58,146 nt of DNA from Negaprion brevirostris. Its lineage: Eukaryota. Shown in pieces: positions 32,201-35,200 of the stretch; position 1 is the stretch's first letter; every line of letters begins with the position of its first letter. The stretch is from assembly GCA_030324005.1 (NCBI GenBank), contig JARDVH010000140.1, forward strand, positions 28,929,513-28,987,658, in the 5' to 3' direction. Position numbers: made by a program.

Positions 32201-35200
32201 TGTCTTTTAGACTTTTTTTCTATAAAATCAAATAGACACCAGCAGGCATTTACTGATAATTCTACACCAGGAGATCAAATGTATGGTACTGGTGGTTCAT
32301 TTATATGTCTGGACAACAGTTTGTCACTCGAAAGATTGTTACGAAAATACAGAACCAGATATGTTCACACTTATTTAGTCGTGGTTGTAGTATAATTGGT
32401 AGACAAAGCGTGTTAACACAGAAGTGGTGAACCATTTGATTCACGGAATGTTTTTCTTATTGTAGAAGGACATCGCGCTCAAACCCCACGAACGCCTGGA
32501 GAAACTTCAGAATCCTCTCGCAAAGAAAAAACGCAACGAGCTGCAAAATGGCCTGAGTTTCCATGCCAACAAGAATAGACACAGCTACCGCAATGGAGCT
32601 TCTGACAGAGAAAATGACCCCAGCTTGAGTCATGGCCATGGGAAGCAGAAGCGTTTCCAGAAGAGGCACAGACAGGTAAGATTGTACCTTCTTCACATGG
32701 GACAGAACTGTCAGCCAAGAATATTGTAGGACATCCTTAGCTGGAACTTTAATGGAATTAATTTTTGTTCCCCTCTGATTTAATCAATAAATTGCTCCAC
32801 AATTTTCCCAAATATAGGGTGGCCAGCTCATTTTTGCTTTTTTTTTCAATGGATGCTGGAGGCACAGAGTGTTTTGAAATCAGTCTGCTGCCCCTAAAGG
32901 ATTCAGTCATACTCCACCCCGCACAGTTTGTAGTCTTCTCCCCGGAGGCCGTCAAAGATTCAAAGCAAAATGATTCTGAGCAATCCCTTATTCAGTGCAA
33001 ATGAGGGTGAACCATTGACCCAAAGCCGTCAGTGATTCAGAAACCTCAGTCTGAAGTTGTACAGATGATATGCGTGGGAGATGGAGATGTCATTTTGGTT
33101 TCAGTGCTGTGGCAAATAGAACCGGAGCTGCAACCAAGTTAATATCAGTTTTGACCTGACTAACGTGTTTACAAAGAGATTTTCTTATAAGCAGCACACT
33201 TTCACAGCAGTTAGCTGAGCTATTGACTGCACTGCATTCACGAGGCTGCTACAGCTTTGACTTCAAGGTCAGCTTCATTGATTGAATTCACTGACGATGA
33301 GATACTTCAGCAGCTTCCTGTGTGGCTGCTGGAAATATCAGTTGGAGTTGTCAGAGTCGCAATGGTCACGGTTTCTCCACCTCAGCACTTTGTTTAAAGT
33401 TCCACGGAGTGTAGTAGGATAACCTCGGATGAAGTTGGAAGAATCCGACTTTGTCCGAACTCTGGAGAAAATCCCATGAGATTCGATAACCACCTCACTA
33501 ATCACGGACAATTGATGACCAACGATGTTGGGCTCTGTGACCAACCAACTTGAACTGAGTGAAGAATCAGTAAGCATAGCGACTTTAATTTAATGTTTAG
33601 TTATTGGTCACAAGTAGGCTGACATTAACACTGCAATGAAGTTACTGTGAAAATCCTCTAGTTGCCACACTCCGGCACCAGTTCAGGTACACTGAGAGAG
33701 AATTTAGCTTGGCCGTTGCACCTAACCAGCACATCTTTTGGACTGTGGGAGGAAGCCAGAGCATCCGGAGGAAACCCTTGCAGTCATGGGGAGAATGTGC
33801 AGATTCCACACAGTCACCCAAGCTGGGAATCGAACCTGTGTCCCTGGCTCTGTGAGGCAGCAGTGCTAACCACTGTGCCGCTACTTGGGGAAAATATTGG
33901 AGAAAATTTGTTCAGAGAGCAAAGCACATTTGTCTGCCTAGGATTGGAATAAAATCAAGTAGTTTTCACAAAAAGAAAACTTTGTGTAATGTTGTGGAGA
34001 TTTGATAATTAATCAACTGTTCATGGTGAAAGTGGTTCTGTCTTAATTCTATTTCTTAGAATTCCCTTCCCCTTTATGTGTTCTGATAGTGCGGTTAGGA
34101 TGTGGCTTAACTCTCGAGTGGTTTGTAAGTGCTGAATGTAGAGTTCCAGAATGATATCAGGATTCAGTGTTGATATGTTCATTACTTCCATGGTAGATTA
34201 ATGCTAATACTTTCAGAATGTCAATTGATATTTCTAGTCAAAGCCATAGCTTATTGTCATTCAGTTCTGGCACTTCACCTGCAGAATTATTTAGTCAATG
34301 GCTTATAACTGAGCGGTGAACAAACGGTGCCAGTAGTGGCATCTTGAAGGTAATGGGTTTACAGAAATAGATACTTGTTAATTTGAACTGCATTCGATAA
34401 AGATGAAAGACTGAATTAATAGAGCTCAAGTTATCTGTTTGAACTATGCAGGAAACAGGTCAGAGACAAGATGGAAGTGTGGAATGAGATGAGAGTATTG
34501 TGAATAAATGAGTTAACAAACGTTTAAATAGGCTGAAAACTCAAATAACAGTGCACGGCAAAGTGCGGACATAGCTCAAAATCGATCCTTGGAGGAGAGG
34601 GAATTGGGCCCGTCCCTGGAGTAGGCTCAAAGTGGAAGTATACGTGTTTTGTTATCATTTGCTGATTTCCACCTTGAAGAAAGGCCACACATTTTGTTTC
34701 CTCGTTTCCTTGCTGTAAGGATGACTCCTGCCTACTGTAGCAACATAACGTTCCACCTGCTTCCAGTTAACTAAAGCAATTAAATTGTATTTCTTAAGCC
34801 CTTGCAAGATTCCTTGGAATTTAAATAATAGGTTNNNNNNNNNNNNNNNNNNNNNNNNNNNNNNNNNNNNNNNNNNNNNNNNNNNNNNNNNNNNNNNNNN
34901 NNNNNNNNNNNNNNNNNNNNNNNNNNNNNNNNNNAATAGGTTCCATACAATAAGTAAGAGGTGCTTGGAACCTAAATAGAATTTTTTTTTAGATGAGAGA
35001 ATAATTCAATCCAATCAAATTAGTTTTCTGAACTTGTCAGTTAAAGACCATGGGGGCAGGATTTTCCAAACCTCCCCCACTGGAGCCAGTTTTCTGGCTA
35101 CTCTCCGTTGGCCCCTGGCAGAATCTTCTGGTCTCACCAATGTCTACAGCTTTTTTGCATGGGGCTCGCCCATTCTTGCACCAAGGAACCCACATGACCC

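What the first reader, a model, noticed from the sequence alone, without database searches (positions are those of the whole stretch)
32466..32675. Unassigned frame-preserving 210-nt exon candidate deep inside the GOSR1 intron
Seen: good acceptor, consensus CAG|GTAAG donor, length divisible by 3, and the only open frame is phase 0, matching the GOSR1 donor at 4392. The 70-aa peptide is hydrophilic and basic (KKKR, KQKRFQKRHR) and has no counterpart in the GOSR1 proteins I know. Inference: it is either a lineage-specific cassette exon inserting a basic or NLS-like segment into the N-terminal helical region of GS28, or an exon of a nested same-strand gene (the dibasic sites would also fit a peptide precursor).
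Basis: partly seen in the sequence, partly recalled or inferred. Interest (0 to 1): 0.68.

Follow-up and report, generated by a model that had tools for sequence, protein, structure and literature searches.

The report
AUTS2 exon 2, not a GOSR1 exon
The 210-base candidate is a real coding exon, but it is the shark copy of the second coding exon of the neurodevelopmental gene AUTS2, not a new cassette exon of the Golgi SNARE gene GOSR1.

Summary
The interval 32466..32675 (+) is as described: TAG|AAG acceptor, CAG|GTAAGA donor, 210 nt, one open + frame, a 70-aa basic peptide. Splice sites plus an open frame are not beyond chance: a rough scan finds one equally good interval on the minus strand. 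Homology settles it. The peptide hits 56 proteins at E<=1e-3. The best is a Scyliorhinus torazame model (96% identity, E=1.6e-34), followed by Callorhinchus, coelacanth, sturgeon, cyprinids, frogs, squamates, birds and mammals at 41-62%. I looked up 30 of the 56 hits. All 10 that carry a gene name are AUTS2 or AUTS2-like, and none is GOSR1, FBRSL1 or FBRS. In a Callorhinchus protein labelled 'Autism susceptibility candidate 2' (P0058), the homologous 70 residues sit between AUTS2 exon-1 and exon-3 sequence. The match to the window stops exactly at 32466 and 32675. None of 9 chondrichthyan GOSR1 isoforms carries the peptide. So this is AUTS2 exon 2, encoding a disordered, lysine/arginine-rich stretch of the N-terminal domain. 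Why it lies 28 kb downstream of a GOSR1 exon on the same strand is unresolved: either a true gene overlap or a scaffolding error.

The parts
32466..32675 (+). Second coding exon of the AUTS2 orthologue (exon 2 in human numbering): 210 nt, phase 0 at both ends, 70 aa, basic and predicted disordered
   Evidence: 56 homologues at E<=1e-3; names; tblastn matches stop at 32466 and 32675; alignment; pLDDT 61, pTM 0.18, no helix of 4 or more or strand of 3 or more residues; exon GC 50.5% and CpG o/e 0.68 against 43.3% and 0.32 for the window
32450..32465 (+). Pyrimidine-rich tract and acceptor (GTTTTTCTTATTGTAG). The AG is part of an in-frame TAG, and a second AG at 32467-32468 makes a TAG|AAG tandem acceptor
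   Evidence: middling score on the rough matrix and alternative start at 32469
32676..32681 (+). Donor GTAAGA after CAG
   Evidence: 11.1 bits on the rough matrix, 4 donors as good on the + strand. Gene models of other species that read through this boundary diverge exactly here (RQ then V...)
4305..4392 (+). Context only: GOSR1 exon (residues 51-80 of shark GOSR1), phase-0 donor. The only GOSR1 exon visible in the window

Best explanation
The interval is the second coding exon of this elasmobranch's AUTS2 orthologue. It is spliced between AUTS2 exon 1 and exon 3, both outside the window because AUTS2 introns are very long. It contributes 70 residues to the intrinsically disordered N-terminal domain of the AUTS2 protein, a nuclear Polycomb-complex-associated transcriptional regulator that also has a cytoskeletal role. 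Shown: the homology, the exact coincidence of the exon boundaries, the absence from GOSR1 proteins, and the predicted disorder. Inferred: that it is transcribed and spliced this way in this species, and that its conserved basic clusters (KKKR, and KQKRFQKRHR at the end) act in nuclear import or as a charged binding segment. It is not part of GOSR1. It merely lies, in this scaffold, downstream of a GOSR1 exon on the same strand.
For:: 56 proteins at E<=1e-3 and 37 at E<=1e-10, most of them matching residues 1-70 end to end. Top hits are S. torazame GCB62735.1 (96%, E=1.6e-34) and Callorhinchus (61%, about 1e-17); of the 30 hits looked up, 10 clusters carry a gene name and all 10 are AUTS2 or AUTS2-like. 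None of the 30 is GOSR1, FBRSL1 or FBRS. add four more named AUTS2-like models (Pitangus, Agelaius, Vidua, Neophocaena). Callorhinchus P0058 (UniRef V9L4M7, 209 aa) reads exon 1 (...ITLEGLE), then the 70-aa homologue, then exon 3 (LKPS...GTGYF). In the 16-row alignment, 7 rows show exon-1 sequence directly before the segment and 9 rows show exon-3 sequence directly after it; tblastn matches of 7 of 7 homologues start at 32466 (one partial at 32511) and end at 32675-32681, and nothing in the window matches exon 1 or exon 3; pairwise identities follow the species tree. Callorhinchus is closest to the two catshark-type sequences (61%, against 34-51% to the others), and birds and mammals share 83-86%. 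This is as expected for one orthologous exon. (Table 2 and text of PMC7732068): AUTS2 residues 69-105 lie in exon 1 and 199-240 in exons 3-6, and the sequence between them is 'largely divergent' among the paralogues. A 57-62% match to AUTS2 therefore argues for orthology with AUTS2 rather than with FBRSL1 or FBRS; 0 of 9 chondrichthyan GOSR1 isoforms carry the peptide between ...EIEQLLAK and LTGVNDKM...; no regular structure predicted.
Against: No transcript evidence for this species was available. AUTS2 exons 1 and 3 and the Auts2 family domain are not in the window, so the gene assignment rests on one exon. No full-length AUTS2 protein appeared in any search: the longest hit is 325 aa. I therefore did not see the exon inside a complete shark AUTS2 model. 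The position is odd: 28 kb downstream of a GOSR1 exon on the same strand, with no further GOSR1 exon between or after. Pfam has no model for this region, so there is no family-model confirmation.
Confidence: 0.9

Rival explanations
1. A lineage-specific cassette exon of GOSR1 that inserts a basic segment after residue 80 of GS28.
For: Same strand as the GOSR1 exon at 4305..4392. The donor at 4392 and the candidate are both phase 0, so inclusion would keep the frame. No GOSR1 exon intervenes in the visible sequence.
Against: 0 of 9 chondrichthyan GOSR1 isoforms read contain it. The peptide's homologues are AUTS2 in every named case (10 of 10), and it is not lineage-specific, being found from chimaera to mammals. 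No downstream GOSR1 exon is visible in the window to splice to.
Confidence: 0.02
2. GOSR1 and AUTS2 truly overlap on the same strand here, and some transcripts splice the GOSR1 donor at 4392 to AUTS2 exon 2, giving in-frame GOSR1-AUTS2 chimeric mRNAs (a conjoined gene).
For: The order and strand in the window. Phase 0 on both sides. GOSR1 and the AUTS2-like model sit on contigs of identical length in Callorhinchus (22,439,983) and in Vidua macroura (11,591,116). These are the only 2 species for which I saw both genes listed, and 2 of 2 agree.
Against: No such chimera is among the proteins seen. The scaffold is fragmentary, with 17 N runs of which nine are exactly 100, so contig order may be wrong. 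Same-strand interleaved genes are rare (general knowledge).
Confidence: 0.05
3. An extra copy of the AUTS2 N-terminal exon, either a chondrichthyan-specific duplicate or a relic of the lost fourth 2R ohnologue of the AUTS2/FBRSL1/FBRS family. On this reading it sits at the GOSR1 locus and is not the AUTS2 orthologue itself.
For: The family is described as three survivors of an expected four (PMC7732068, passages). In man GOSR1 and AUTS2 are on different chromosomes (recalled). Several database models are labelled 'AUTS2-like'.
Against: Identities track the species tree with no second chondrichthyan lineage among the hits. The region is too divergent among the paralogues to be found, and no FBRSL1 or FBRS hit appeared, whereas this exon is 57-62% identical to tetrapod and coelacanth AUTS2. 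An ancient ohnologue should be far more diverged. The 'AUTS2-like' labels attach to short models of exons 1-3, which look like fragments of a giant gene split by annotation (inference).
Confidence: 0.03
4. A chance open frame between chance splice-site matches.
For: The mechanical filter passes one comparable interval on the other strand.
Against: E=1.6e-34 to 1e-11 matches over the full 70 residues in 37 proteins, with the boundaries coinciding with those of a Callorhinchus AUTS2 protein.
Confidence: 0

Closest known systems
AUTS2 (autism susceptibility candidate 2 / activator of transcription and developmental regulator), second coding exon
   Same: 57-62% identity over all 70 residues to coelacanth, bird and mammal AUTS2 fragments, and 61% to Callorhinchus. 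Same exon boundaries and phase. Same position after the hydrophobic tract that ends exon 1 and before the DSDSES/GTGYF segment of exon 3. Invariant L18, K20, K21, N28, S46, D47, E49, N50 and K66.
   Different: Nothing qualitative. Length varies by a few residues between lineages (69-71 in most, longer His runs in snakes). The genomic neighbourhood (a GOSR1 exon 28 kb upstream) differs from man, where the two genes are on different chromosomes (recalled).
Scyliorhinus torazame hypothetical protein scyTo_0000063 (GCB62735.1)
   Same: 96% identical over the exon (67 of 70). This model continues into exon-3 sequence (LKPPQHSCRDSDSES...GTGYF), so in the sister species exon 2 and exon 3 were joined by the annotators.
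   Different: The model starts at an ATG in the upstream intron and runs on into the intron after exon 3. It is a fragmentary prediction, not a full AUTS2.
FBRSL1 and FBRS (paralogues of AUTS2)
   Same: Same family and same 19-exon plan, with basic NLS-type motifs in exon 1 (PMC7732068, passages).
   Different: The stretch between conserved regions 2 and 3, which contains exon 2, is reported as divergent among the paralogues. None of the 30 hits looked up is FBRSL1 or FBRS.
GOSR1 / GS28 (Golgi SNAP receptor complex member 1)
   Same: Same strand and compatible phase. One true GOSR1 exon lies 28 kb upstream.
   Different: No sequence relation. No GOSR1 isoform read contains the peptide.

Membership tests
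AUTS2 orthologue, exon 2 | Peptide similar to the AUTS2 N-terminal segment between conserved regions 2 and 3 | tested here: met
   (56 hits, 37 at E<=1e-10). (10 of 10 gene-named clusters are AUTS2 or AUTS2-like). alignment.
AUTS2 orthologue, exon 2 | Exon boundaries and phase coincide with those of AUTS2 exon 2 | tested here: met
   Callorhinchus P0058 shows ...LEGLE | 70 aa | LKPS.... The window match starts at 32466 and ends at 32675. 7 of 16 rows have exon 1 directly before the segment and 9 of 16 have exon 3 directly after it.
AUTS2 orthologue, exon 2 | Lies in one gene with AUTS2 exons 1 and 3 and the Auts2 family domain (Pfam name and accession as given in PMC7732068) | tested here: inconclusive
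   Neither exon 1 nor exon 3 is in the window. In S. torazame the exon is modelled together with exon 3. The C-terminal exons are outside the window, and no eukaryote genome collection was on hand.
AUTS2 orthologue, exon 2 | Transcribed and spliced into AUTS2 mRNA in this species | not testable with these tools
   No RNA-seq or transcript collection for this organism. The only support from another species is Callorhinchus protein P0058 (UniRef V9L4M7), which I recall comes from a cDNA project (origin recalled, not from a call).
GOSR1 cassette exon | Peptide present in at least some GOSR1 proteins or transcripts | tested here: not met
   0 of 9 chondrichthyan GOSR1 isoforms read (Callorhinchus x5, Carcharodon, Chiloscyllium x2, Amblyraja). 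0 of 30 looked-up homologues of the peptide is GOSR1.
GOSR1 cassette exon | Flanked on both sides by GOSR1 exons | tested here: inconclusive
   An upstream exon is present (4305..4392). No downstream GOSR1 exon is visible up to 58146. The N runs were not filled.
Secreted peptide precursor | Signal peptide and dibasic sites flanking a conserved peptide | tested here: not met
   The segment is internal to proteins that begin with a basic MDGPR...RKKR N-terminus. Only 14 of 70 residues are hydrophobic, and none form a run.
FBRSL1 / FBRS | Best similarity to these paralogues rather than to AUTS2 | tested here: not met
   No hit is named FBRSL1 or FBRS among the 30 looked up. No FBRSL1 or FBRS sequence was fetched for a direct comparison.

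The most novel reading that the evidence does not exclude
The scaffold order is right, so GOSR1 and AUTS2 are interleaved on the same strand in this elasmobranch: AUTS2 exon 2 sits inside GOSR1 intron 3. This would be a remnant of an ancestral GOSR1-AUTS2 neighbourhood that was broken in mammals. Because the GOSR1 donor at 4392 and the AUTS2 exon are both phase 0, in-frame GOSR1-AUTS2 read-through transcripts would be possible.
Probability: 0.2. Interest if true: 0.35.

Novelty: already known. Interest (0 to 1): 0.15.

Why it matters
Mostly for annotation. It keeps a spurious 'GOSR1 isoform with an NLS insert' out of the gene set and assigns the exon to AUTS2, a gene whose giant introns cause its first exons to be annotated again and again as separate short 'AUTS2-like' genes (seen). 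Two smaller points follow. The exon is a disordered, fast-evolving segment, only 61% identical between chimaera and shark, yet it keeps its length, its phase and nine invariant residues across jawed vertebrates, which points to a constrained short linear motif (KK in the KKKR cluster, and SD.EN). The co-location of GOSR1 (human 17q11.2, recalled) and AUTS2 (human 7q11.22, recalled) on one chromosome in a chimaera and a bird, and within 28 kb in this scaffold, also bears on reconstructing the ancestral gnathostome linkage group.

Tried and rejected
Pfam on the peptide, on the antisense ORF and on the GOSR1 exon at E<=10: 0 families each. Pfam on Callorhinchus P0058 and Neophocaena P0182: 0 families, so the N-terminal part of AUTS2 has no model. 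PDB sequence search with the peptide at E<=1: 0 matches. Rfam at gathering thresholds on the whole window: 0 matches. tRNA scan: 0 genes. Self-BLAST of 31372..34834 against the window: the exon is not repeated, so it is not part of a dispersed repeat.

Word-indexed searches for longer proteins, meant to recover full-length shark AUTS2, gave only 7 hits and 1 hit, none longer than 325 aa. I therefore could not show the exon inside a complete AUTS2 protein.

A weak tblastn match of Callorhinchus exon-1 residues 28-72 at 20666..20815 (36% identity, E=0.002, with an in-frame stop and composition correction switched off) was rejected as low-complexity chance.

Literature: 'AUTS2' with 'GOSR1' gave 8 papers, none about gene order (listing only). 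'AUTS2' with 'elephant shark' gave 1 paper on ultraconserved elements (listing only). I found nothing in print on a GOSR1-AUTS2 overlap in these two searches.

Not done:
- The N runs were left as they are.
- Genome contigs (bacteria and archaea) was not used because it cannot hold this locus.
- The supplements of PMC9454499 (synteny tables and figures) were closed, and they may list the neighbours of auts2.

Full report
**Observation.** A pyrimidine-rich tract ends in TAG. The exon of 210 nt begins at AAG and is followed by CAG|GTAAGA. It translates into 70 residues without a stop: KDIALKPHERLEKLQNPLAKKKRNELQNGLSFHANKNRHSYRNGASDRENDPSLSHGHGKQKRFQKRHRQ. That includes 18 K+R, 6 H, 7 D+E and only 14 hydrophobic residues. 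The acceptor AG is the end of an in-frame TAG, so the frame opens exactly at the exon start. Of the three + frames, only this one is open across the interval. One minus-strand frame is also open across it (32457..32783, 108 aa), but it has no Pfam match.

It spans 4305..4392, ends on a complete codon, and matches residues 51-80 of white-shark GOSR1.

**Is it more than chance?** On splice signals alone, no. I used a rough weight matrix built from recalled consensus frequencies, useful only as a relative ruler. By that measure the donor is among the 4 best on its strand, but 283 + strand acceptors score at least as well as this one. The filter 'acceptor and donor at least this good, 60-400 nt apart, at least one open frame' passes this locus on the + strand and one unrelated locus on the minus strand (53079..53204). 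The latter translates into hydrophobic, cysteine-rich text. The exon is not a dispersed repeat. Its GC content (50.5%) and CpG observed/expected ratio (0.68) stand above the window's values of 43.3% and 0.32.

**What it is.** A full HMMER scan of 1.84 billion representative proteins with the 70 residues returned 56 proteins at E<=1e-3, 37 at E<=1e-10 and one at E<=1e-30. Nearly all match residues 1-70 end to end.

I looked up 30 of the 56 hits:
- 10 clusters carry a gene name, and all 10 are AUTS2, 'AUTS2-like' or 'AUTS2 homolog'. They come from Callorhinchus, Camelus, Ictidomys, Carassius, Labeo, Pimephales (in the Cirrhinus cluster), Xenopus laevis, snakes, Acipenser and Gekko.
- 12 are hypothetical, uncharacterized or unnamed-product proteins of named vertebrates. 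They include Scyliorhinus torazame GCB62735.1 (96% identity, E=1.6e-34) and Latimeria H3B280.
- 8 have no name or species, and I left them aside.
- None is GOSR1, FBRSL1 or FBRS.

The two word-indexed searches added four more named AUTS2-like models: three from birds and one from a porpoise.

**Exon identity and boundaries.** Callorhinchus protein P0058 (UniRef V9L4M7, 'Autism susceptibility candidate 2', 209 aa) has three parts in order. First comes an N-terminal segment ending ...ITLEGLE, then the 70-residue homologue KDTTLKP...KRCRQ, then LKPSPGSRDSDSES...GTGYF. The S. torazame model continues from the exon into the same LKP...DSDSES...GTGYF segment.

In a 16-row alignment (the window plus 15 named non-human proteins), 7 rows show exon-1 sequence directly before the segment and 9 rows show exon-3 sequence directly after it. 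The remaining rows end or turn into unrelated text exactly at the two boundaries, as expected of models that run into introns.

tblastn of seven homologues against the window gives matches that begin at 32466 (one partial at 32511) and end at 32675-32681. Nothing in the window matches exon 1 or exon 3.

Table 2 of PMC7732068, read as passages, puts AUTS2 residues 69-105 in exon 1 and 199-240 in exons 3-6. The segment is therefore the second coding exon, exon 2 in human numbering.

**Orthologue or paralogue?** Pairwise identities over the exon follow the species tree. Callorhinchus is closest to the two catshark-type sequences (61%, against 34-51% to all others). Birds and mammals share 83-86%, and the two cyprinids 88%. 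[quoted passage not shown] That fits the absence of FBRSL1 or FBRS hits. The exon therefore belongs to the AUTS2 orthologue, not to a paralogue.

**Not GOSR1.** I read nine chondrichthyan GOSR1 isoforms: five from Callorhinchus, one from Carcharodon, two from Chiloscyllium and one from Amblyraja. All go straight from ...EIEQLLAK to LTGVNDKM.... Their extra lengths come from other alternative segments.

**How it most likely works.** The exon supplies about 70 residues of the AUTS2 N-terminal domain, which the literature describes as largely disordered (PMC7732068, passages). An AlphaFold2 run on the peptide with the 16-row alignment gave mean pLDDT 61 and pTM 0.18, with no helix of 4 or more residues or strand of 3 or more. 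There is no PDB relative.

Nine columns are invariant: L18, K20, K21, N28, S46, D47, E49, N50 and K66. Nine more are at least 90% conserved. This picks out P-L-x-K-K, N-G-L and S-D-x-E-N as short conserved motifs in an otherwise fast-evolving stretch.

A role of the KKKR cluster in nuclear import is an inference. Papers mention three predicted NLS motifs in the AUTS2 N-terminus (PMC9454499, passage). [quoted passage not shown]

**The unresolved part.** AUTS2 exon 2 sits 28 kb downstream of a GOSR1 exon on the same strand. White-shark GOSR1 finds only residues 51-80 in the window, on either strand. No AUTS2 exon 1 lies between the two.

Three readings remain:
- The two genes truly overlap or interleave.
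- The scaffold order is wrong. The window has 17 N runs, nine of exactly 100 bases. The 48 bases on either side of the run at 31272..31371 are 94% identical to each other, which is typical of a draft assembly.
- The GOSR1 exon is an isolated duplicate.

Linkage at chromosome level is supported. GOSR1 and the AUTS2-like model lie on contigs of identical length in Callorhinchus (22,439,983) and in the bird Vidua macroura (11,591,116). These are the only two species for which I saw both genes listed. PMC9454499 reports med13, vmp1 and cltc near auts2 in gar and teleosts. That these, like GOSR1, are human chromosome 17q genes is recalled.

I could not test adjacency. I take no part of the window for human.

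**Verdict.** This is a real and ordinary exon, already represented in public protein sets for related species. Interest is low. The only open curiosity is the GOSR1-AUTS2 arrangement.

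Noticed in passing
window 33587..33881 (reference copy); other copies near 30037-30332, 39320-39611, 6110-6388, 36099-36401, 37913-38200, 56413-56609, 9664-9857, 27481-27642, 41567-41655, 43587-43682, 3941-4110, 7847-7998: A dispersed repeat of about 300 bp, SINE-like, with 12 further full or partial copies on both strands at 69-84% identity. No tRNA gene or Rfam family is detected in the window.
   Followed up: partly
window 32463..32468: The acceptor is a TAG|AAG tandem (NAGNAG type). 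Using the second AG would start the exon at 32469 and drop the first lysine, which is conserved in at least 90% of aligned rows.
   Followed up: no
window 32457..32783, minus strand: A 108-aa antisense open frame spans the whole exon. It has no Pfam match and is probably a by-product of the purine-rich sense strand.
   Followed up: partly
window 45157..45630, + strand: A 158-aa open frame containing ...YQERLDRIGLYILEFRRVRC.... It resembles, from memory only, the C-terminal end of ORF2 of CR1/L2-type LINEs. Pfam gave no match.
   Followed up: partly
window 31224..31271 and 31372..31419: The 48 bases on each side of the 100-N run at 31272..31371 are 94% identical to each other. Such a duplication at a gap edge suggests overlapping contig ends in a draft assembly. 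The window has 17 N runs in all.
   Followed up: no
window 53079..53204, minus strand: This is the only other interval that passes the same mechanical exon filter (126 nt, strong donor). Its translation is hydrophobic and cysteine-rich with no sign of being a gene, and I used it as the chance control.
   Followed up: partly
window 1..58146: There is no CpG-island-like 500-bp window (GC>=0.5 and o/e>=0.6) anywhere in the visible sequence, and the overall CpG o/e is 0.32. No promoter-type island for GOSR1 or AUTS2 is therefore visible here.
   Followed up: no
database models, not the window: Across many vertebrates the first two or three AUTS2 exons are annotated as separate short 'AUTS2-like' proteins of about 100-325 aa. 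No full-length AUTS2 appeared among the hits. This may reflect gene models split by giant introns, or real short N-terminal isoforms such as the one PMC7732068 mentions.
   Followed up: no
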